DNA of 64,000 nt, from contig JAEUQT010000001.1 of the NCBI GenBank assembly GCA_016789445.1, positions 131,603-195,602 of the forward strand, given 5' to 3'. The stretch comes from a bacterium (GTDB lineage: Bacteria > Patescibacteriota > Minisyncoccia > Phycocordibacterales > UBA2100). Positions 16,503-60,815 of this stretch are shown here, in pieces (position 1 is the stretch's first letter; each line of letters begins with the position of its first letter). The notes beneath the pieces are model-generated. The model saw only the letters and a list, made by a program, of their open reading frames with translations. It did not search any database and was not told the DNA's origin. The translations under genes were made by a program, and so were the position numbers.

Positions 16503-16629
16503 TAACGGCTCGTGTCTCTACACTTTTGAGCCCGCTCTTGATTTCATCAAAGCGAGCGCGGTCTACCTCCCTGAATTCTAGATTGTGAATTTCCATATTA
16601 CATGCGAGTACGCCAGACAAGGATACTTT

Positions 16630-16748
16630 GGAAACCCTCGGTTTTCCAACGGTCGCCGAAGCGACCTGCCTTCCGACACGGGGAACTCCCGTTCCCCGAC
16701 CCCCTCCCTATCCAAGTCTGGCAACAAATCTCGTTGCACTCAATTTGT
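16630..16748 (+). repeat. Family B tRNA-3'-flank element (GAAACCCTCGGTTT ... CTTCCGACACGG ... GC hairpin ... CCGACCCCCTCCC ... inverted copy of tRNA-Gln 3' end)
   Basis: Shares ordered motifs with 21886-21989. It ends in an 18-bp perfect palindrome formed with the tRNA-Gln 3' end (CCAAGTCTGGCAACAAAT / ATTTGTTGCCAGACTTGG). Confidence 0.6.
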
Positions 16749-21800: not shown

Positions 21801-21885
21801 AATGCGGATATCCTACGCGAAAATGCTGGATTTTCAATCTTACGGTCCGGGATTTCACTGCTCGCCGTATTCTCGGCTGCGCTTT

Positions 21886-21989
21886 CGAAACCCTCGGTTT
21901 CGAATAACTTCCGACACGGAGGGGGTCCGGTGGGTCCCCCTCCGACCCTCCCCCGTTCAATCCCGGTCGGGCCTCTCGCTACGCTCGTG
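21886..21989 (+). repeat. Family B tRNA-3'-flank element (second copy) between the two tRNA-Thr genes
   Basis: Ordered motifs shared with 16630-16748: GAAACCCTCGGTTT, CTTCCGACACGG, GC hairpin GAGGGGGTCC...GGTCCCCCTC, CCGACCCTCCCC, then an inverted copy TTCAATCCCGGTCG of the tRNA-Thr(GGT) T-arm. Confidence 0.55.
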
Positions 21990-25666: not shown

Positions 25667-25685
25667 GTTTGAGTGACGGGACTCG

Positions 25686-25902
25686 GTCACAGATATTTCT
25701 TGCGCCGTCGGACAGATTTTTTCGCGACCATAGGCATCGTCTCGGCCAAGAGCTCATTCGTCGCCGTCGCTCCTCATTCCTCTCGGCCCTGATTTTGCGA
25801 CCCCGTCTGCTGACGGGTCCGCCGCAAAATCTTTCGAGTCCCGCCACTCTGCTGAAAAACGCAACAACCCCGACGGCATGCGTCGGGGTTGGCGTTTTGC
25901 GC
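25686..25902 (+). repeat. Family A tRNA-3'-end-associated miniature element, copy 1 (degenerate), at tRNA-Asp
   Basis: Begins GTCACAGATA plus a hairpin. Contains an inverted copy TTCGAGTCCCGCCACTC of the tRNA-Asp T-arm/acceptor and a terminator hairpin CCCCGACGGCATGCGTCGGGG. Flanked by a 15-bp direct repeat GAGTGACGGGACTCG (25671-25685 and 25903-25917) equal to tRNA-Asp nt 56-72. Confidence 0.7.
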
Positions 25903-25973
25903 GAGTGACGGGACTCGAACCCGCAGCCTTTCCCGTGACAGGGGAATGCTCTAACCAATTGAGCTACACCCGC
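25900..25973 (-). tRNA. tRNA-Asp (anticodon GTC)
   Basis: Manual fold: acceptor GCGGGTG/CACTCGC (G4-U69), anticodon stem TTCCC/GGGAA with loop CTGTCAC, T-arm GCGGGTTCGAGTCCCGT, discriminator G. Confidence 0.85.
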
Positions 25974-26352: not shown

Positions 26353-26387
26353 CTCTCTATTCTATCGTAGTGTCGAGGGTGGGGGTC

Positions 26388-26538
26388 GGTCACGAATAAT
26401 TTCTGTCCCGTCGGACAGAAATTTTCGCGACCCCGGCTCGCGGTCTCGCCTGCTGGCGAGACATCGCTCCGCCTTTCGACCCCCACACGCTGTGTGCGCA
26501 GGCACACAGCCCTCGACACAAATCCACTTCGTATATTT
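26388..26538 (+). repeat. Family A element, copy 2 (canonical), at tRNA-Met
   Basis: GTCACGAATAAT; hairpin ATTTCTGTCC-CGTC-GGACAGAAAT; core TTTTCGCGACCCCGGCTCGCG-GTCTCGCC-TGCT-GGCGAGAC-ATCGCTCCGCC. Then an inverted tRNA 3'-half mimic TTCGACCCCCAC[hairpin]CCTCGACAC. Flanked by a 19-bp direct repeat (26369-26387 and 26539-26557) equal to tRNA-Met nt 56-74. Confidence 0.8.
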
Positions 26539-26539
26539 G

Positions 26540-26613
26540 TGTCGAGGGTGGGGGTCGAACCCACGACCTTGGCTTTATGAATGCCACGCTCTAACCAACT
26601 GAGCTACCCCGAC
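26540..26613 (-). tRNA. tRNA-Met (anticodon CAT; elongator Met or lysidine-Ile type)
   Basis: Manual fold: acceptor GTCGGGG/CCTCGAC, anticodon loop TTCATAA, T-arm GTGGGTTCGACCCCCAC. Confidence 0.75.
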
Positions 26614-27164: not shown

Positions 27165-27421
27165 CGCAGGGCGGGCTTGGTCAAGAACATTTCTTGCTTC
27201 CGTCGAAGCAAGAAATTTCTCGGCCCTGATGTTGCGGGGGCGGGCTTGGTCACGGATAATCTTCGCGCCGTCGCGCGAAGATTTCCGCGACCCCGGCTCG
27301 CGGTTTCGCCCACTGGCGAAACATCGCTCCGCCTTGCAAGTCCAGCACGAAAAGCGCACCGGCGCTTTTCTCCCCGCGACTGCACAAACACAAAACCGCC
27401 CGTACGGCGGCTTTGTGTTTG
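27165..27421 (+). repeat. Family A element, copy 3 (canonical) plus a tandem partial unit (27165-27227), at tRNA-fMet
   Basis: Partial unit GGGCGGGCTTGGTCA plus hairpin ATTTCTTGCTTC-CGTC-GAAGCAAGAAAT. Full unit from 27247: GTCACGGATAAT, hairpin ATCTTCGCGC-CGTC-GCGCGAAGAT, core TTTCCGCGACCCCGGCTCGCG-GTTTCGCC-CACT-GGCGAAAC-ATCGCTCCGCC, inverted T-arm mimic TTGCAAGTCCAGC, terminators. Direct repeat TGTTGCGGGGGCGGG (27228-27242 and 27422-27436) equals tRNA-fMet nt 60-75. Confidence 0.8.
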
Positions 27422-27423
27422 CT

Positions 27424-27495
27424 TGTTGCGGGGGCGGGACTTGCACCCGCGACCTCCAGGTTATGAGCCTGGCGAGCTACTACTGCTCCACCCCG
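27424..27495 (-). tRNA. Initiator tRNA-fMet (anticodon CAT)
   Basis: Near-identical to the E. coli tRNA-fMet body (GCGGGGTGGAGCAG ... GCTCATAACC ... GGTCGCGGGTGCAAGTCCCGCCCCCGCAA) with an unpaired 1:72 position (A1/A72), the initiator hallmark. Confidence 0.75.
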
Positions 27496-27539
27496 CTATG
27501 AAGTGCGTAGTATACCTCACGAGGAAGTGTGAGGCAAAT

Positions 27540-44412: not shown

Positions 44413-44435
44413 AATTGCGGAGAGGGAGGGATTCG

Positions 44436-44582
44436 GTCACGGATAATTTTCTGCTGAAAATTTCCGCGACCCCGCCTCGTCGCCTACGCTCCTGCGACTT
44501 TCGAATCCCTCCGTTTCGCTATGCGAAACCGCCACCCTTTCGGGCGGCGCTCTCCGCAAAAAACTTGCGGGTCTCGTTTTTT
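44436..44582 (+). repeat. Family A element, copy 4 (variant), at tRNA-Ser
   Basis: GTCACGGATAAT; hairpin AATTTTC-TGCT-GAAAATT; TTTCCGCGACCCCGCCTCG; covarying hairpin GTCGC...GCGAC. Inverted tRNA-Ser 3'-half mimic TTCGAATCCCTCC[hairpins]CTCTCCGCAA. Flanked by a 21-bp direct repeat TTGCGGAGAGGGAGGGATTCG (44415-44435 and 44583-44603) equal to tRNA-Ser nt 56-76. Confidence 0.8.
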
Positions 44583-44585
44583 TTG

Positions 44586-44674
44586 CGGAGAGGGAGGGAT
44601 TCGAACCCTCGAGACAGTTTGACCCGCCTAACACGTTAGCACCGTGCCGCCTTCGACCACTCGGCCACCTCTCC
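44586..44674 (-). tRNA. tRNA-Ser (anticodon GCT), long variable arm
   Basis: Manual fold: acceptor GGAGAGG/CCTCTCC, anticodon stem GCACG/CGTGT with loop GTGCTAA, extended variable arm, T-arm GAGGGTTCGAATCCCTC. Confidence 0.8.
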
Positions 44675-50961: not shown

Positions 50962-50982
50962 GTGCACGCACTGTCTCATGTC

Positions 50983-51148
50983 GTCACGGATAATTCAATG
51001 AGTGTCAATATCGAGTCCCCAGGGATAATTTTGTCGCCGTCGCTCCAAAATTTCCCCGGGCCTGGCTCGCGGTCGCGCGTACTCGCGCGACATCGCTCCG
51101 CCTCGGACCAGTAAACAAAAACAGCGCTCAATGCGCTGTTTTTGATTC
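50983..51148 (+). repeat. Family A element, copy 5 (composite/degenerate), at tRNA-Ile
   Basis: GTCACGGATAAT at 50983, then a second GATAAT at 51023 with hairpin ATTTTGTCGC-CGTC-GC..CAAAAT; core TTTCCCCGGGCCTGGCTCGCG-GTCGCGCG-TACT-CGCGCGAC-ATCGCTCCGCC; partial inverted copy of the tRNA-Ile 3' end (CGGACCAG); terminator AAACAGCGCTCAATGCGCTGTTTTT. No clean direct repeat found. Confidence 0.6.
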
Positions 51149-51225
51149 TGGTCCGCCCTCTTGGATTCGAACCAAGGACCGCAAAGGTATAAGCTTTGTG
51201 CTCTAACCAACTGAGCTAAGGGCGG
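51149..51225 (-). tRNA. tRNA-Ile (anticodon TAT), CCA encoded
   Basis: Manual fold: acceptor CCGCCCT/AGGGCGG, anticodon stem CAAAG/CTTTG with loop CTTATAC, T-arm CTTGGTTCGAATCCAAG, discriminator A, then CCA. Confidence 0.7.
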
Positions 51226-56346: not shown

Positions 56347-56730
56347 GGGGATGATTGGCTTCGACAGGGAGATCGATGCATATACATGCATGGCGGAAGT
56401 GGGTATCTTCCCAAAAACACCCAAACTCTAAGTGCAAACAAAACTGCACGGGGGGTTCTCTCGCCTATTCAGGTGAAGGACCTCGGCTTTGCTTTCGCGT
56501 AAGCCAAGGCAACCGTTCGTTCAGAGGTCTCCAATACTCTGATGCGAGCGTCATATCATTGGATACGGCTTCCCTATCACACCGTAGGTTAGTCTAAAGA
56601 AAGAGTGTCCGACGCGAAGCGATCTTGTGCGTTCCATACTCTCCGCGTTCAAAACCTTTGAACGCCCTACGCCTTGTAGATGTGTGTATGCGTTTCTCTT
56701 TGCACCGCGGTTCGATTCCGCGCATCTCCA
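56347..56730 (+). ncRNA. ssrA: tmRNA (ssrA), standard one-piece
   Basis: Directly downstream of smpB. 5' end GGGGATGATTGGCTTCGACAGGG matches the tmRNA 5' consensus. The acceptor stem GGGGATG/CATCTCC has a G3-U wobble (Ala identity). 3' T-arm CGCGGTTCGATTCCGCG plus discriminator A. Candidate tag frame from GCA 56434 to TAA 56500-56502 (...VKDLGFAFA). Terminator hairpin GCAAGCCGCC...GGCGGCTTTTGC at 56739-56766. Confidence 0.8.
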
Positions 56731-56743
56731 CAGCCAATGCAAG

Positions 56744-56912
56744 CCGCCTTCCAGGCGGCTTTTGCATTTGCATTGCGACGGTGGAGATGAAGAAAGCGCC
56801 TGCGCGCTTTCTGCGGGGGTCTCGAAAGGCGGAGCGCTGTTCCGACAGCAGGCGGAACCGCGAGCCGGGGTCGCGGAAATTCAAAGGCGACGGCGTTTGA
56901 ATTATCTGTGAC
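56744..56912 (-). repeat. Family A element, copy 7 (inverted orientation), at tmRNA gene 3' end
   Basis: Reverse complement reads GTCACAGATAAT, hairpin (TTCAAACGCC-GTC-GCCTTTGAA), TTTCCGCGACCCCGGCTCGCG-GTTCCG-CCTGCTGT-CGGAAC-AGCGCTCCGCC, T-arm-like TTTCGAGACCCCCGC, a hairpin, then TCATCTCCAC (copy of the tmRNA 3' acceptor strand). Direct repeat CGATTCCGC (56713-56721 and 56913-56921) equals the tmRNA T-loop from nt 56. Confidence 0.75.
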
Positions 56913-56972
56913 CGATTCCGCCGCCGATATTCCTTCATGCAACCTTATGTGTTTTGATACGTCCACTGAGAT

Positions 56973-58298
56973 ATGCCGAAGCGATACTGGTGGAAGGATG
57001 CGAAGATATACGAGCTCTACGTCGATCGCTTCGCGGGGAATTTCCAGAACCTGACGGCACAATTGGATTACCTGGAGCGTCTTGGCATCAACGCACTCCA
57101 CATCCTCCCCCACTACCCGTCGCCCATGGCCGATGGCGGCTATGACGTGATGGAATATCTCAACGTCCGGCCGGAACTCGGCACGATCGAGGATTTCGAT
57201 ACCTTCCTCAAAGAAGCGCACCGCCGCGATATCAAAGTCATCATCGACTTCGTCCTCAATCACGTCTCAGAACATCATCCTTGGTTCTTGGAGGCGCGAT
57301 CATCGAAAGACAACAACAAGCGCGATTACTTTTTATGGAGCGAGAGCGGACACGAACTCGCCCTCGGTTGGAATGCCTTCCCCGACATCAAGCCTGGCAA
57401 TTGGATATTCAACGAAGAGACGCAGGACTACTACTATGCGACCTTCTATCCGCAGCAGCCGGATCTGAATTGGGACAATCCGGAAGTCTTCGCAAGCATG
57501 ATGCAGAACATGGATTTCTGGGCCGGCCGCGGCGTGGACGGCTTCCGCTTGGACGCAGCGGTGACGCTCATCAAACGAGACGGCACGCTCTCGAAAGGAT
57601 TGCCGGAAACGCACCAGCTCATCAAACGCATCCGCAAACACTTGGACACGAAATTCGGCGGCGAGATCGTCCTTCTTGCTGAAGCGCATCAGCACGTCAA
57701 AGAGATGAAGACGTATTTCGGGGACGGCGACGAATGCCATCTCGTGTACCATTTCTCACTCACCGAGCAGCTCTTCCTCGCTCTTATGCGCAATGATCGC
57801 ACCGAACTCGATGCGATGCTTGAGGAATCACGCGACATCCCGGAGAACTGCCAGTGGGCGATCTTTCTGCGCAATCACGACGAACTCTCGCTCGCGACAC
57901 TCGCCCCTGAAGTACGCACCGAGCTCATCACCTATCTTGATCCGAAGAGCGAATATCTTTTCAATGGCGGCGCAGCGACCGCCAAGAGGTTGGGCAGCAT
58001 GTTCGACGAAGCGAAGCTGCGCGAAGCGATTTCTCTCCTCTACTCGCTTCCGGGGGCGCCTATCATGTACTACGGCGACGAGATCGGCATGCAGAATCTT
58101 CCACGTACGGAAGGCGTGATCGACAGCCGCGTGTACGTCCGCGGTGAATTCGATTGGCTTGAGGCCGGGCTGCAGCGCAGTGATCCTGATTCCCTCTACA
58201 ACTTCACGAAGGGTGTCATCCGTAAATCACTCTGGCCATATAAGCGGGATTTCAATTCACCTCCCCCAGAAGAGGGATCGCCAAGCGACGACGAGTAG
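56973..58298 (+). CDS. GH13 alpha-amylase family protein (trehalose synthase/amylosucrase-like)
   Basis: GH13 motifs: DFVLNHVS (region I), GVDGFRLDAA (region II, catalytic Asp), EAHQ (region III Glu), FLRNHDE (region IV). The N-terminus WKDAKIYELYVDRFAG resembles TreS. Confidence 0.7.
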   Translation: MPKRYWWKDAKIYELYVDRFAGNFQNLTAQLDYLERLGINALHILPHYPSPMADGGYDVMEYLNVRPELGTIEDFDTFLKEAHRRDIKVIIDFVLNHVSEHHPWFLEARSSKDNNKRDYFLWSESGHELALGWNAFPDIKPGNWIFNEETQDYYYATFYPQQPDLNWDNPEVFASMMQNMDFWAGRGVDGFRLDAAVTLIKRDGTLSKGLPETHQLIKRIRKHLDTKFGGEIVLLAEAHQHVKEMKTYFGDGDECHLVYHFSLTEQLFLALMRNDRTELDAMLEESRDIPENCQWAIFLRNHDELSLATLAPEVRTELITYLDPKSEYLFNGGAATAKRLGSMFDEAKLREAISLLYSLPGAPIMYYGDEIGMQNLPRTEGVIDSRVYVRGEFDWLEAGLQRSDPDSLYNFTKGVIRKSLWPYKRDFNSPPPEEGSPSDDE

Positions 58299-59556
58299 TC
58301 TCACCTTTGAAGAGTTGCCGCGTCCGCTCCGGCATGTCTCCTCGCTCGCCAAGATGCGCGCCGAATTTCATCGCCTGGAAACTCGAACCGAGGAAGACTG
58401 CGTGTTTACCGTATCGTTCCGATATCGCATCCACGCTCTCGAACACCATCTTCAATCCTTGGGATTCTTCCACTTTGCCGAAAAGATCGAGCTGAAGACT
58501 GTCCGCGGGGCGCAGCTGCGCGAGGGTCACGCCGCTCGCACGATACAGCTTCCCGTTCTCGAAAACCTGCGGGAAGAATTTAGCGACCTCGCGCAGGACA
58601 TCCTGCGGGACATTCGTGGGGTGCGGGAGCTTCACTTCGATACCGTGGTATCTGAAATCCTGTGTCTTGAGAAAGAAGAACACGCGATCACTCGCGAGAT
58701 TCCATCGGCGCGCCTTGATGCACGCATTCTCGACATTTTTGGAGAGCTGACTGAAGATAAACTTCGCATCGCGCAATGGTGGCGTGAAGGTCTTGGTCTT
58801 CTGGATGCTCTGGTAGCTGGTCTTCTTTTCCGTCGTGAGTGGATAGATGGCTTCGCCATTGAGCTCCCGCCAGATCTCCTGCACCGGCTTCGAAACTTTC
58901 GCACGCACCCATGGTTCGTTCTTGCGCGCAAAATCGAGCGCGCTCTGAATACCGAACTTATTGAGATACGCCGCAGTGTTTGGCCCGATCCCCCATACAT
59001 TCCCTACCGGCAGCTTTCCGAGAAATTTTGATGCGTCGCTGAGCGGTATCGAGGTGAGACCATCAGGCTTCTTCCATTTCGAACCGACCTTCGCCAGGAC
59101 TTTCGTCGCCGAGAGACCCACACTGAACGTGATGCCGAGCTTCACCTGCAGCTCCTGCTTAATGGAATGCGCCATGTCGTGGTAGTTCATCCGATTCACG
59201 CGGCGCATACCGGTGAGGTCCGCGAAGCATTCATCAATGGAATACTCCTCGACGGCAGGCGTGTAGCGACGCACGATCTCGTACATACGCTCTGAATATA
59301 GACTGTAGGTCTCGTAATCCGACGGCAGCACGATCGCATCTGGGCACGCTTCAAGAGCTTCGCTTAATTTGACCCCGCGCTTCACGCCGCGACGCTTCGC
59401 CTCGTAGGTGCACGCAGAGACGATGCCGCGCTCTTTGCCGGTGATGACCGGCTTACCGCGCAGCTTTGGATTCTTTGCCACTTCGACTGCAGCAAAGAAA
59501 GAGTCACCATCCACGTGCAGGATGGCTCTGGGATACGAGTATGACTTACCCCACAT
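58252..59556 (-). CDS. dinB: DNA polymerase IV (Y-family translesion polymerase DinB)
   Basis: ILHVDGDSFFAAVE palm motif, Y-family fingers and little-finger regions; 434 aa. Confidence 0.85.
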   Translation of the reverse strand: MWGKSYSYPRAILHVDGDSFFAAVEVAKNPKLRGKPVITGKERGIVSACTYEAKRRGVKRGVKLSEALEACPDAIVLPSDYETYSLYSERMYEIVRRYTPAVEEYSIDECFADLTGMRRVNRMNYHDMAHSIKQELQVKLGITFSVGLSATKVLAKVGSKWKKPDGLTSIPLSDASKFLGKLPVGNVWGIGPNTAAYLNKFGIQSALDFARKNEPWVRAKVSKPVQEIWRELNGEAIYPLTTEKKTSYQSIQKTKTFTPPLRDAKFIFSQLSKNVENACIKARRWNLASDRVFFFLKTQDFRYHGIEVKLPHPTNVPQDVLREVAKFFPQVFENGKLYRASGVTLAQLRPADSLQLDLFGKVEESQGLKMVFESVDAISERYGKHAVFLGSSFQAMKFGAHLGERGDMPERTRQLFKGETTRRRLAIPLLGEVN

Positions 59557-59576
59557 AGGCCATGTACGTCCGGACT

Positions 59577-59645
59577 GTCACGGATAATTTTCTGCTGAAA
59601 ATTTCCGCAACCCCGCCTCGACACCTAAAGTGTCTCCGGCCTTGC
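59577..59645 (+). repeat. Family A element, copy 6 (orphan partial copy, no adjacent tRNA)
   Basis: GTCACGGATAATTTTCTGCTGAAAATTTCCGCAACCCCGCCTCGACACCTAAAGTGTC, nearly identical to the first 60 nt of copy 4. Lies in the intergenic gap between the dinB start and the mazF-like gene. Confidence 0.65.
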
Positions 59646-59682
59646 GAAGCTCCATGTATTCGCTTCTCACCCCAGACCATAG

Positions 59683-60168
59683 CTACCTGAACTTAAGCGT
59701 GTAGGCTGGCTTGAATGCAGGAAGTGGTGCGTACCGCGAAGTGCGTGGTAGCGGCGTCCGCATGCGTGATGGCCGGATCTGTTTCGCAGGCTTTACCGGA
59801 TTCGTCTCGGCAAGAAATTCCATGACCGCGAGATTCACCGTAGCGAATTGCCGATCACTGATGCGACCGAGACGACGGATAAGCTGGTCCTTCCGCAGCA
59901 TGCGCATCTGCGAAAGGGTTCCGGTGCGGTTCGCACCCTTGAGTGACGTAAGAAAATAAAACGGGGTTTCCTTACCGCTCGCACGCGACGTAAGCGGCAA
60001 TCCCCAGAACGTATCGGTACCGAGCGTACGGAACACCAAGACCGGCCTCTCAGCTGCAGCGTCGGTTGCCGAAGGCACCGAACACCACCAGATATCCTGC
60101 GCACGATATTTCACTTCTCGTACGCGCGCTGTCTTCTTCGAAAAAATGTGGGAAAGCTGTTTAAACAT
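59683..60168 (-). CDS. PemK/MazF-like toxin domain protein (putative mRNA interferase) with C-terminal Pro/Arg-rich extension
   Basis: Pattern D.WW ... ERPVLVFRT ... GLPLTS ... typical of the PemK/MazF fold; longer than canonical at 161 aa. Confidence 0.45.
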   Translation of the reverse strand: MFKQLSHIFSKKTARVREVKYRAQDIWWCSVPSATDAAAERPVLVFRTLGTDTFWGLPLTSRASGKETPFYFLTSLKGANRTGTLSQMRMLRKDQLIRRLGRISDRQFATVNLAVMEFLAETNPVKPAKQIRPSRMRTPLPRTSRYAPLPAFKPAYTLKFR

Positions 60169-60187
60169 ATGCTGGTTGGTTCCGCTA

Positions 60188-60760
60188 CTAATACTTCCGT
60201 ACGACGCCCGTGACTACTGCTTCGACTTTGAACGATTCTGTCGGATAAATGTTGCTGAACTTCTCATTCGCCGGCTCCAGATAATGATTCCCCTTCTTGT
60301 CCTGTCTCAGGTATTTCATGGTGTACTCGCCGTCGACCATCGCGATCACGATCTGCCCGACCTTGTACGTGTTGCGACGCTCGACGACTACCATGTCTCC
60401 CGGACGGATCCCCGCATCGATCATGGATTCGCCTTTTACTTTCAAGATGTAACTCGATTCCTTATTCGGCGTCAGGAACTCGTCGAAATCCATCGTATCG
60501 AGCAGCTCCTCCTCCGCTGCCGACGGAAAGCCCGCTTCGACTAAGCCAAGGAGAGGGACACCTCCTCCGAAATTTCCGGGAGAAAGACGGCCCTGTCGGT
60601 CTTTGACGACCACACCCTCGTCGACAAGTTTTTCGATGAGCTTGAACACAGCGTTCTTGGATCTAAAACCCGTGAAGACCATGATCTCCTTGTAGCCCGG
60701 GAAACGCCCATGCTTCTCATAAAACGCGACCAACTTCTGTTTATAGTGCTCATACGTCAT
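60188..60760 (-). CDS. lexA: LexA repressor (S24 peptidase)
   Basis: N-terminal wHTH; C-terminal S24 domain with Ser (GESM) and Lys (KVGQIVIAMVDGEYTMKYL). Start set at MTYEHYKQ (60760) so the SOS box lies upstream; the alternative start at 60808 would overlap the box. Confidence 0.8.
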   Translation of the reverse strand: MTYEHYKQKLVAFYEKHGRFPGYKEIMVFTGFRSKNAVFKLIEKLVDEGVVVKDRQGRLSPGNFGGGVPLLGLVEAGFPSAAEEELLDTMDFDEFLTPNKESSYILKVKGESMIDAGIRPGDMVVVERRNTYKVGQIVIAMVDGEYTMKYLRQDKKGNHYLEPANEKFSNIYPTESFKVEAVVTGVVRKY

Positions 60761-60799
60761 ACATGTTTTCCCTAGTAATTCCTTATGGAGTTCAGTGTA

Positions 60800-60815
60800 G
60801 TGAACCATGGTTCAC
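60800..60815. promoter_or_regulatory. Putative LexA operator (Cheo-box-like GTGAAC-N4-GTTCAC perfect palindrome)
   Basis: GTGAACCATGGTTCAC lies 40-55 nt upstream of the proposed lexA start; it matches the Gram-positive-type SOS box core GAAC-N4-GTTC. Confidence 0.55.

What the first reader, a model, noticed from the sequence alone, without database searches (positions are those of the whole stretch)
26400..26470. Compensatory base changes in two element hairpins indicate a conserved structure (RNA or DNA)
The hairpin after GATAAT keeps a roughly 10-bp stem and CGTC loop with entirely different stem sequences: ATTTCTGTCC/GGACAGAAAT (copy 2), ATCTTCGCGC/GCGCGAAGAT (copy 3) and ATTTCTTGCTTC/GAAGCAAGAAAT (copy 3b). 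The second hairpin after CGCGACCCCGGCTCGCG is GTCTCGCC/GGCGAGAC (copy 2), GTTTCGCC/GGCGAAAC (copy 3), GTCGCGCG/CGCGCGAC (copy 5) and GTTCCG/CGGAAC (copy 7). Pairing is always perfect, so both halves changed together. Such covariation is the signature of selection on secondary structure, for example a structured ncRNA transcribed from the GATAAT -10-like box, or a recombinase-recognised DNA hairpin.
Basis: seen in the sequence. Interest (0 to 1): 0.8.

Follow-up and report, generated by a model that had tools for sequence, protein, structure and literature searches.

The report
Structured mini-element inserted behind tRNA genes
The two hairpins are real. They belong to a roughly 110-nt three-helix fold, kept by compensatory changes across candidate-phyla-radiation bacteria, that forms the core of a tiny gene-less insertion element sitting behind tRNA genes and carrying a stretch complementary to its own target, which matches nothing in the RNA-family library or the papers searched here.

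Summary
The two hairpins are the tops of helices P3 and P2 of a three-way junction whose third helix, P1, is formed by the element's flanks. On 92 copies (8 in this window; the rest from Patescibacteria and a few Elusimicrobia), 91% of pair cells are paired, against 33-47% in slid controls, and 39 of 41 pairs show double changes. Most copies lie just downstream of a tRNA or tmRNA gene. Each carries a segment (t') complementary to that gene's 3' end, and after ...GUGAC comes a direct repeat of that 3' end starting at T-loop C56 or near position 72. Relatives with the same gene order have precise empty sites. In another genome the target is the 3' end of topA, whose resident end is displaced. 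No transposase, integrase or reverse transcriptase is encoded in the element or found among the 50 window ORFs scanned. Rfam, phage and plasmid collections have no match. Best reading: a non-autonomous integrative element that folds as a single strand and recognises its target by base pairing. The enzyme is unknown; a large serine recombinase is a weak lead.

The parts
26370..26388 (-). Copy A, downstream direct repeat (t_down): a copy of tRNA-Met positions 56-74. It is the 3' strand of closing helix P1.
   Evidence: Identical 19-mer at 26539-26557 inside the tRNA; repeat analysis.
26389..26431 (-). The 'GATAAT' box (26394-26400) is its 3' strand.
26432..26434 (-). Junction GGG between P2 and P3.
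   Evidence: Invariant columns in A1.
26435..26473 (-). Copy A, helix P2: GSC/GS'C base with covarying S and S', a GGA/GA internal loop, GCG/CGC, an AU bulge and a variable 8-bp top.
   Evidence: Pair 17/58 is C-G in 13 copies, G-C in 13 and U.G in 2.
26474..26519 (-). Copy A, target-complementary segment t'. It comprises a 3-nt junction (26474-26476) whose first two bases (on the tRNA-sense strand) complement tRNA T54-T55, t'b (26477-26486) complementary to positions 56-65, hairpin HP3 (26489-26510, loop GCAG on the + strand), and t'a (26511-26519) complementary to positions 66-74.
   Evidence: the split falls at the T-stem/acceptor-stem boundary in copies A, B, C and D.
26520..26538 (-). Copy A, spacer between the tRNA and t'.
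   Evidence: It is absent from the empty sites of L132 and L133.
26539..26613 (-). tRNA-Met (CAU), the target gene of copy A.
27231..27424 (-). Copy B behind tRNA-Met 27425-27497. Model hit 27236-27348 (111.8 bits). A bidirectional terminator lies at 27395-27410.
27180..27226 (-). Copy B': a P3-only unit of a variant scaffold (base GGCCGAGAA/UUCUUGACC), followed by a partial repeat.
   Evidence: 18.9 bits. The same tandem occurs in L138 and L133.
44415..44584 (-). Copy C (short form) behind tRNA-Ser 44585-44674, with a 21-nt repeat at 44415-44435.
   Evidence: (63.9 bits).
56732..56925 (+). Copy D behind the tmRNA gene (56347-56731). Model hit 56813-56925.
   Evidence: 105.9 bits.
50982..51148 (-). 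Copy F behind tRNA-Ile (UAU) 51149-51225. Model hit 51005-51117. An extra GTCAC box lies at 50982.
   Evidence: 98.9 bits.
25673..25898 (-). Copy E, degenerate or compound, behind tRNA-Asp 25899-25973. Model hit 25731-25846.
   Evidence: 38.5 bits.
59577..59690 (-). Copy G: a solo short form just after the stop codon of a MazF/PemK-like gene, with no tRNA nearby.
   Evidence: (41.5 bits).

Best explanation
It is a family of miniature integrative elements of about 110-250 bp that encode no protein. They act through a folded single strand, RNA or ssDNA, with the same sense as the target gene. The conserved part is a three-way junction. P2 and P3 have invariant bases, bulges and a fixed G.U, and presumably form the platform for an enzyme supplied in trans. 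The variable part is a 5-21-nt segment t' lying 5' of P2. It is complementary to the 3' end of the target gene across the crossover point: two bases on its 5' side and the rest on its 3' side. Integration exchanges strands exactly at the P3/P1 junction (...GUGAC|C). The element brings its own copy of the target gene's 3' end, usually followed by a hairpin or terminator, so the gene stays intact. The resident 3' end is pushed downstream, where it can pair with t' to close the junction.

Shown here: the fold, the functional strand, the tRNA/tmRNA/topA 3'-end location, the repeat and its fixed start, the complementarity of t', empty sites in relatives, tandem arrays, and the absence of any gene in the element.

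Inferred: mobility by site-specific strand exchange, base pairing as the means of target choice, and a trans-acting enzyme. A large serine recombinase is one candidate.
For: Structure and strand.

Context: 63 of 92 copies have a same-strand tRNA or tmRNA ending within 300 nt upstream, at a median of 47 nt. One more lies behind a tmRNA found only by Rfam.

Repeat: it starts at C56 of the T-loop (GGTT|CRA) in 27 of 52 copies (33 counting starts within two bases), or near position 72 (|CACAA) in about 12. t' complements the tRNA for exactly 2 nt beyond the repeat start in 41 of 52 copies. This includes the 3'-end class, where those bases differ from copy to copy (CG, CA, GA, TC, GG and others).

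Empty sites: L132 and L133 read tRNA-Met...GGCAC|TGATAGAATAG. The window reads ...CGACAC|169-bp element|TACGATAGAATAG, and L138 holds a different scaffold variant at the same site. The tRNA-Asp site is empty in L132 and filled in the window, L133 and L138.

Protein-gene target: in L014 the element follows the topA stop codon, and a diverged second copy of the last roughly 75 nt of topA, with its own stop, follows GUGAC.

Other support: tandem arrays with one repeat per unit. A second scaffold family with the same architecture behind tRNA-Gln and tRNA-Thr. A 5.1-kb cargo-bearing version in L004, with a serine-recombinase remnant abutting the tRNA. No mobility gene among 50 window ORFs.
Against: No enzyme is identified, and 65 related loci share no recurrent neighbouring protein family.

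The link to the serine recombinase rests on one locus. Four loci encoding that recombinase (L212, L213, L215, L216) have no scaffold.

No excised form or recent polymorphism between near-identical strains was seen.

It is unexplained how t' and the carried 3' end are reset for a new target gene.

Some copies persist at the same site in lineages whose neighbouring protein is only about 65% identical, with structure kept by compensatory changes. That also fits a host function.

P1 itself is only about 74% paired and shows no G.U bias, with 52 G.U against 47 A.C cells. It may therefore be a relic of insertion rather than a working helix.

In many copies a terminator lies between the tRNA and the scaffold, which argues against co-transcription if the active form is RNA.
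Confidence: 0.55

Rival explanations
1. It is a host-beneficial non-coding RNA module made together with, or next to, each tRNA. The P2/P3 scaffold binds a protein. The t' segment pairs with the 3' half of the cognate pre-tRNA or its trailer, to guide or control 3'-end processing, quality control or repair. The downstream repeat masks t' or serves as a processing signal that mimics the acceptor/T arm.
For: The functional strand has the sense of the tRNA, and G.U pairs are conserved, as is usual for RNA. The structure is maintained at orthologous sites. 8 of the 9 tRNA/tmRNA genes in the window carry such a module of one family or another. HP3 splits t' exactly at the acceptor/T-stem boundary, so P1 plus HP3 resembles a tRNA minihelix. 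t' matches the tRNA 2 nt beyond the repeat.
Against: Close relatives lack it at the same tRNAs. Copies decay, occur in tandem, and occur as solo units away from tRNAs. One target is a protein gene, topA. Terminators often precede the scaffold. t' pairs with only about 76% of the first 10 tRNA positions. There is no conserved promoter.
Confidence: 0.2
2. These are inert scars. They are what remains after internal deletion of larger tRNA-integrated islands, for example serine-recombinase islands. They have no activity of their own, and the hairpins are kept by templated mutation within palindromes or because they act as terminators.
For: L004 shows a 5.1-kb version with a recombinase remnant. 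Recombinase genes overlap tRNA 3' ends in L044, L069, L085 and L215. P1 decays without strand bias. The P3 tops change by fully compensated pairs much faster than the flanking sequence, which fits templated correction.
Against: The same roughly 90-nt scaffold, with invariant unpaired bases, bulges and a fixed G.U, is kept in 92 copies across several candidate phyla and at more than ten different targets in one genome. Independent deletions would not converge on one minimal unit. P3 is not followed by a T run. Recombinase-bearing loci lack the scaffold.
Confidence: 0.1
3. It is a self-cleaving or self-ligating ribozyme placed after tRNAs. It would work like the HDV-like 'theta' ribozymes behind phage tRNAs, using t' to position the tRNA 3' end or the ...GUGAC|C junction.
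For: Its position is downstream of tRNAs. It is a compact junction with invariant junction nucleotides. The crossover point lies exactly at the junction.
Against: No Rfam ribozyme model matches, even at E<=10. The junction has almost no unpaired conserved core (3 variable nt, then GGG, then 0 nt). I compared the hammerhead core by eye and it does not fit. Terminators precede many copies.
Confidence: 0.05
4. This is the first reader's model: a small RNA transcribed from the GATAAT box on the strand opposite to the tRNA.
For: GATAAT resembles a -10 hexamer. Bidirectional terminators lie downstream on that strand in several copies.
Against: The box is base-paired and covaries. G.U pairs would become C.A mismatches on that strand, including one present in 84 of 89 copies. 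There is no conserved -35, and the scan makes no promoter call there. The opposite strand folds less well.
Confidence: 0.03

Closest known systems
IS200/IS605-family ends and their gene-less derivatives (PATEs; REP/REPIN elements mobilised by RAYT transposases)
   Same: Short, non-coding and multi-copy. They are recognised as a folded single strand on one strand only. Stems covary while mismatches and bulges are conserved. The flanking cleavage or target site is read by base pairing with an internal 'guide' next to a hairpin foot. The enzyme can be encoded elsewhere.
   Different: No Y1 HUH transposase was found here. The guide is 5-21 nt rather than 4. There is a direct repeat of the target and a carried copy of the gene's 3' end. 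The two hairpins are unlike each other. Targets are the 3' ends of tRNA, tmRNA and topA rather than a tetranucleotide.
tRNA-integrating genomic islands and prophages (attP carries the 3' part of the tRNA; crossover in the T-loop or at the 3' end)
   Same: A direct repeat of the tRNA 3' part flanks the insert. The gene is restored by the element's own copy. The two crossover positions (T-loop, 3' end) match the known sublocation classes (from my own knowledge, Williams 2002). Tandem arrays form at one tRNA. One 5.1-kb version has a recombinase remnant.
   Different: The elements are 110-250 bp with no integrase. They have a strand-specific folded scaffold. An internal complement of the target exists and differs for every target. 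More than ten different targets are used in one small genome.
IS110/IS1111 bridge (seek) RNAs
   Same: A structured non-coding part of the element carries sequence complementary to the target, spanning the crossover.
   Different: No DEDD recombinase ORF is present. There are no paired internal loops with bipartite target and donor guides, since the internal loops of P2 and P3 are invariant and 2-3 nt long. Here there is one contiguous guide, often split by a hairpin, and long repeats instead of a 2-nt core.
Folded single-stranded recombination sites (integron attC; CTX-phi attP)
   Same: Structure is conserved rather than sequence. Extrahelical bases are conserved. Recognition is strand-specific.
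   Different: The R''/R' boxes are absent (0 of 92 copies). The context and the architecture (a three-way junction with a target-derived helix) differ.
Guide pairings of self-splicing introns (group I IGS; group II EBS/IBS)
   Same: An internal sequence pairs with both sides of the insertion point.
   Different: The scaffold is far too small. No intron model matches. Group II introns are reported absent from Patescibacteria (PMC13011429).

Membership tests
Any described RNA family (Rfam 15, 4227 models, including ribozymes, HEARO/omega RNAs, tRNA-like RNAs) | Match to the family covariance model | tested here: not met
   Only tRNAs and the tmRNA reach the gathering score in the window. Nothing covers the scaffold at E<=10.
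Classical MITE | Family-wide terminal inverted repeats and a fixed-length target-site duplication | tested here: not met
   The inverted arms (t' and the repeat) differ in every copy and are derived from the target. Repeat length ranges from 4 to 45 nt.
Classical MITE | A related autonomous IS with a transposase | tested here: inconclusive
   None among 50 window ORFs or as a recurrent neighbour in 65 loci. One cargo-bearing version exists, with a serine-recombinase remnant.
IS200/IS605 / REP-RAYT type | Strand-specific hairpins recognised as single strands | tested here: met
   Covariation together with the G.U asymmetry of 171 against 14. The same junction folds with DNA parameters.
IS200/IS605 / REP-RAYT type | Insertion 3' of a 4-5-nt site without duplication; a Y1 HUH transposase in the genome | tested here: not met
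   Long direct repeats are present. No Y1_Tnp hit in the window. The rest of the genome was not available.
Integron attC | R'' RYYYAAC and R' GTTRRRY boxes | tested here: not met
   0 of 92 copies.
IS110/IS1111 bridge RNA | Adjacent DEDD recombinase gene; two internal loops carrying target and donor guides | tested here: not met
   No such ORF was found. The internal loops are invariant and tiny.
IS110/IS1111 bridge RNA | Guide complementary to the target across the crossover | tested here: met
   t' complements the target for 2 nt 5' of the crossover and 5-19 nt 3' of it, in 41 of 52 copies.
tRNA-integrating island att sites | Direct repeat of the 3' part of the target gene, with the gene restored | tested here: met
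tRNA-integrating island att sites | Integrase gene inside the repeat-bounded unit | tested here: not met
   The units are 110-250 bp and encode no gene. L004 is the only exception, and there the gene is a remnant.
   No promoter call there. The box covaries as a helix strand.
Self-cleaving ribozyme | Site-specific self-cleavage | not testable with these tools
   Only model matches could be tested, and there were none.

The most novel reading that the evidence does not exclude
A previously unrecognised class of nucleic-acid-guided site-specific integration. A gene-less module of about 100 nt, a three-way junction, carries a programmable 5-21-nt guide that base-pairs across the crossover point with the 3' end of an essential gene. 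An unlinked and so far unidentified enzyme, or the fold itself, exchanges strands exactly at the junction. Several unrelated scaffolds use the same logic in Patescibacteria, which makes it distinct from both IS110 bridge RNAs and IS200/IS605 guides.
Probability: 0.3. Interest if true: 0.9.

Novelty: new variant of a known kind. Interest (0 to 1): 0.75.

Why it matters
If the reading is right, very small genomes of candidate-phyla-radiation bacteria carry dozens of gene-less elements. These would choose their insertion site by base pairing and repair the gene they enter. That would add a compact, naturally re-targeted system to the few known cases of nucleic-acid-guided DNA insertion.

It would explain a large share of the unexplained conserved intergenic sequence behind tRNA genes in these organisms.

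It also gives a concrete, testable handle for finding the enzyme: about 90 nt of invariant scaffold and a defined cut point.

Even on the rival reading, a tRNA-linked RNA module, this would be a widespread structured RNA family that is not in Rfam.

Tried and rejected
- **GATAAT as promoter:** rejected.
- **Rfam at gathering score and at E<=10:** nothing.
- **Core motif in IMG/VR viral contigs:** 10 hits, all chance matches without the GTCAC box.
- **blastn against annotated phages and plasmids:** no match.
- **Exact-protein look-up of the neighbouring NUDIX gene:** returned only the source contig.
- **Pfam on 50 window ORFs:** housekeeping genes only.
- **Clustering of neighbouring ORFs in 65 loci:** no recurrent family.
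- **Elusimicrobia copies:** no conserved upstream promoter and no adjacent transposase.
- **Kissing interaction between the HP3 loop and the P2 loop:** considered, but the loops do not covary (by eye).
- **Hammerhead and group II domain-V resemblance:** considered by eye and dropped.
- **attC boxes:** absent.
- **CGTC-tagged REPs (PMC3733652):** there the CGTC is an unpaired end tag, whereas here it is a hairpin loop (GACG on the functional strand), so no membership.
- **TIGR-Tas / IS110 paper (PMC12045711):** describes nothing like this element.
- **Serine-recombinase loci L212, L213, L215, L216:** no scaffold.
- **Distant repeats in L085, L069, L044, L215:** none.
- **Literature searches:** found no description of the element.

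Full report
**What is at the coordinates.** Window 26400-26470 lies inside a 169-bp unit (26370-26538) immediately downstream of a tRNA-Met gene on the minus strand (26539-26613). The conserved boxes are far more frequent than in shuffles: the 17-mer CGCGACCCCGGCTCGCG gives 7 matches against 1.0 expected, and GGTCACGGATAAT also gives 7 against 1.1. A covariance model built later finds eight copies in the window:

| Copy | Coordinates (strand) | Bits | Note |
|---|---|---|---|
| A | 26376-26488 (-) | 120.8 | |
| B | 27236-27348 (-) | 111.8 | |
| D | 56813-56925 (+) | 105.9 | |
| F | 51005-51117 (-) | 98.9 | |
| C | 44423-44513 (-) | 63.9 | |
| G | 59577-59643 (-) | 41.5 | |
| E | 25731-25846 (-) | 38.5 | |
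| B' | 27180-27226 (-) | 18.9 | P3 only |

**The fold and the strand.** A scan of species-representative genomes with the core motif returned 120 loci. About 70 of them are true copies. They come almost entirely from Patescibacteria (Saccharibacteria, Paceibacterota, and the Kaiser-, Adler-, Taylor-, Nomura- and Zambryskii-bacteria), plus a few Elusimicrobia. Each copy, folded alone, gives the same three-way junction.

On a 28-sequence alignment, RNAalifold finds 31 pairs, 20 of them with compensatory changes. Adding the closing helix gives 41 pairs. Of these cells 90.5% are paired, against 35-45% when partners are slid by 1-3 columns. The covariation score is 0.51 against 0.09-0.14, and 0 of 500 shuffles reach it. 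On 92 model hits the figures are 91.3% against 33-47%, with 39 of 41 pairs showing double changes. That second alignment is fitted to the model, so it leans towards the structure. The first alignment is a plain MAFFT alignment.

Its base is formed by the two 'conserved boxes': GUCGCGRAAAU pairs with AUUAUYYGUGAC. This base has R/Y covariation, a bulged A, and a G.U present in 84 of 89 copies. Hairpin 2 is the top of P2. Its base, GSC/GS'C, switches between G-C and C-G, with U.G in a few copies.

G.U pairs exist only if the strand with the sense of the tRNA is the folded one. P2+P3 hold 171 G.U cells against 14 A.C cells, or 45 against 13 without the two near-fixed columns. The tRNA-sense strand is also the more stable. 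The same junction forms with DNA parameters, so RNA and ssDNA cannot be told apart here. The GATAAT box is therefore a helix strand, not a -10 element, and the promoter scan calls nothing there.

Of the 92 copies, 63 have a same-strand tRNA or tmRNA gene ending within 300 nt upstream, at a median of 47 nt. Nine more sit at locus edges, and one more lies behind a tmRNA. Reading in the sense of the tRNA, the order is:

- the tRNA;
- a spacer, often holding a terminator-like hairpin;
- t', the reverse complement of the tRNA's 3' end, often split by hairpin HP3 exactly at the T-stem/acceptor-stem boundary;
- 3 nt;
- P2;
- GGG;
- P3, ending ...GUGAC;
- a direct repeat of the tRNA 3' end.

The repeat starts at T-loop C56 (GGTT|CRA) in 27 of 52 analysable copies (33 counting starts within two bases), or near position 72 (|CACAA) in about 12. 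Its length is 4-45 nt, with a median of 9. The first two of the three junction bases complement the two tRNA bases just 5' of the repeat start in 41 of 52 copies. This holds in the 3'-end class too, where those bases vary from copy to copy. So t' is matched to the target across the crossover point, not merely to the repeat.

t' pairs about equally with the tRNA copy and with the downstream copy: 396 and 382 of 520 positions. The resulting helix P1 is only about 74% paired and shows no G.U bias, with 52 G.U against 47 A.C cells. It looks like a copy made at insertion that then decays, while P2 and P3 stay constrained.

**Evidence that it is an insertion.** A metagenome scan with the neighbouring NUDIX protein gave 80 related loci. 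Only six of them hold the scaffold. L132 and L133 keep the gene order NUDIX - tRNA-Met - small membrane-protein gene - tRNA-Asp, but read tRNA-Met...GGCAC|TGATAGAATAG(G/A)GAG. The window has the 169-bp unit between ...CGACAC and TACGATAGAATAGAGAG, and L138 has a different scaffold variant at the same place. The tRNA-Asp site is empty in L132 and filled in the window, L133 and L138.

In L014 the target is the 3' end of topA. The element follows the stop codon. After GUGAC comes a second, diverged copy of the last roughly 75 nt of topA, with its own stop codon (...KSCANHNPHKREKK* against ...KTCPNHNPHKKGK*). Again the two junction bases complement the two bases 5' of the crossover. This is how integrative elements behave: they carry the end of their target gene and displace the resident one.

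Several further observations fit repeated site-specific insertion. Tandem arrays of different scaffold variants occur, each followed by its own repeat. Degenerate copies exist (E, C). A second, unrelated scaffold with the same architecture lies behind tRNA-Gln and tRNA-Thr in this window. 8 of the 9 tRNA/tmRNA genes in the window carry one family or the other.

**What is not there.** The element encodes nothing. Fifty ORFs of the window are ordinary chromosomal genes: translation factors, type IV pilus genes, ligase, RecG, FtsH, SmpB and others. None is a transposase, integrase, HUH nuclease or reverse transcriptase. No protein family recurs next to copies in 65 loci. Rfam has no match even at E<=10. 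Viral contigs, annotated phages and plasmids have none. Literature searches found no description. One paper reports that group II introns are absent from Patescibacteria (PMC13011429), which makes retrohoming unlikely.

**A lead on the enzyme.** I looked for distant partners of each downstream repeat. This found one cargo-bearing version, L004: tRNA-Gln, then 5.1 kb, then t'-P2-P3 (94.9 bits), then a 19-20-nt repeat starting at C56, with no third repeat copy. The ORF abutting the tRNA, convergent with it and overlapping it, is the C-terminal remnant of a large serine recombinase. Its homologues carry the Resolvase, Recombinase and Zn_ribbon_recom domains. Recombinase genes of this kind overlap tRNA 3' ends in the same way in L044, L069, L085 and L215. 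However, the other recombinase-bearing loci fetched (L212, L213, L215, L216) contain no scaffold and no distant repeat. The link therefore rests on one locus and is a hypothesis only.

**Most likely mechanism and its weak points.** I read the unit as a non-autonomous integrative element whose active form is a folded single strand. P2 and P3 would be the enzyme platform, t' the target selector, and the strand exchange would occur at ...GUGAC|C. Confidence is about 0.55.

Three things are unexplained. First, how t' and the carried gene end are reset for a new target. Partial pairing through the conserved T-loop, or through the generic ...CACAA 3' ends, may allow jumps, but this is speculation. 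Second, why orthologous copies persist with intact structure in lineages about 65% identical in the neighbouring protein. Third, why L133 and L138 are identical over about 140 nt of the element (one substitution outside the loops) yet differ by three fully compensated pairs in the 9-bp top of P3 and in both tetraloops. The last point warns that 'perfect compensation' may partly come from templated mutation within palindromes or from exchange of hairpin tops, not only from selection.

The main rival is a host RNA module for tRNA 3'-end handling, at about 0.2. It is supported by the strand and by persistence. It is weakened by the empty sites, decay, solo copies, the topA target and the preceding terminators.

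**Verdict.** The element family appears undescribed and is widespread in Patescibacteria.

Noticed in passing
window 16590-16746 and 21860-21988 (minus strand): A second, unrelated repeat family with the same architecture: complement of the tRNA 3' end, then several hairpins, then a repeat. It lies behind tRNA-Gln and tRNA-Thr (GGU). The tRNA-Gln copy folds into a multi-helix junction closed by a 13-bp helix. Its core 12-mer has no exact match in the 211 other loci fetched by then.
   Followed up: partly
L133 841-953 vs L138 2788-2900 (alignment A4): The two copies are identical over about 140 nt except for three fully compensated base pairs in the top of P3 and changes in both tetraloops. The hairpin top evolves much faster than its surroundings. 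L138 has also lost the tRNA-Met upstream of this intact copy.
   Followed up: partly
L004 247-5483; L044, L069, L085, L215: Large serine recombinase genes, or remnants of them, lie convergent with and overlapping the 3' ends of tRNA genes in Patescibacteria. In L004 such a remnant and the scaffold bound a 5.1-kb insert at tRNA-Gln.
   Followed up: partly
L014 3620-3930 (also L076): The element uses the 3' end of the topoisomerase I gene as its target. The last roughly 75 nt of topA are duplicated and diverged, and each copy has its own stop codon.
   Followed up: yes
window 51149-51225: A tRNA-Ile with anticodon UAU, which is unusual for bacteria. This gene encodes its CCA end, whereas at least the tRNA-Met at 26539-26613 does not.
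   Followed up: no
window 58255-60808: Solo copy G lies between a DinB-type polymerase gene and a MazF/PemK-like toxin gene, next to a LexA-like S24 peptidase gene.
   Followed up: no
L138 4039-4720: A free-standing ORF with two LAGLIDADG-like motifs (read by eye, not scanned), between the small membrane-protein gene and tRNA-Asp. It is absent from the window and from L132.
   Followed up: no
L132 2890-2990: Upstream of the NUDIX gene, L132 has no tRNA-Met but keeps short pieces resembling its T-arm in both orientations. This may be a scar of a lost tRNA plus element.
   Followed up: no
L044, L073, L040, L039, L105, L008; L116 4252-4333: Short-form 'solo' copies lie 14-58 nt upstream of a same-strand tRNA. 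One lies next to a 5S rRNA gene on the opposite strand. In these copies the complement of t' sits 5' of it in a hairpin with loop GAAUACWUGGA.
   Followed up: partly
HP3 in many copies (e.g. window 26489-26510, 56789-56811): The hairpin between the two halves of t' has a variable stem but a conserved tetraloop: GCAG or GAAG on the strand opposite to the tRNA. In the 3'-end class it is flanked by A and T runs, like a bidirectional terminator.
   Followed up: no
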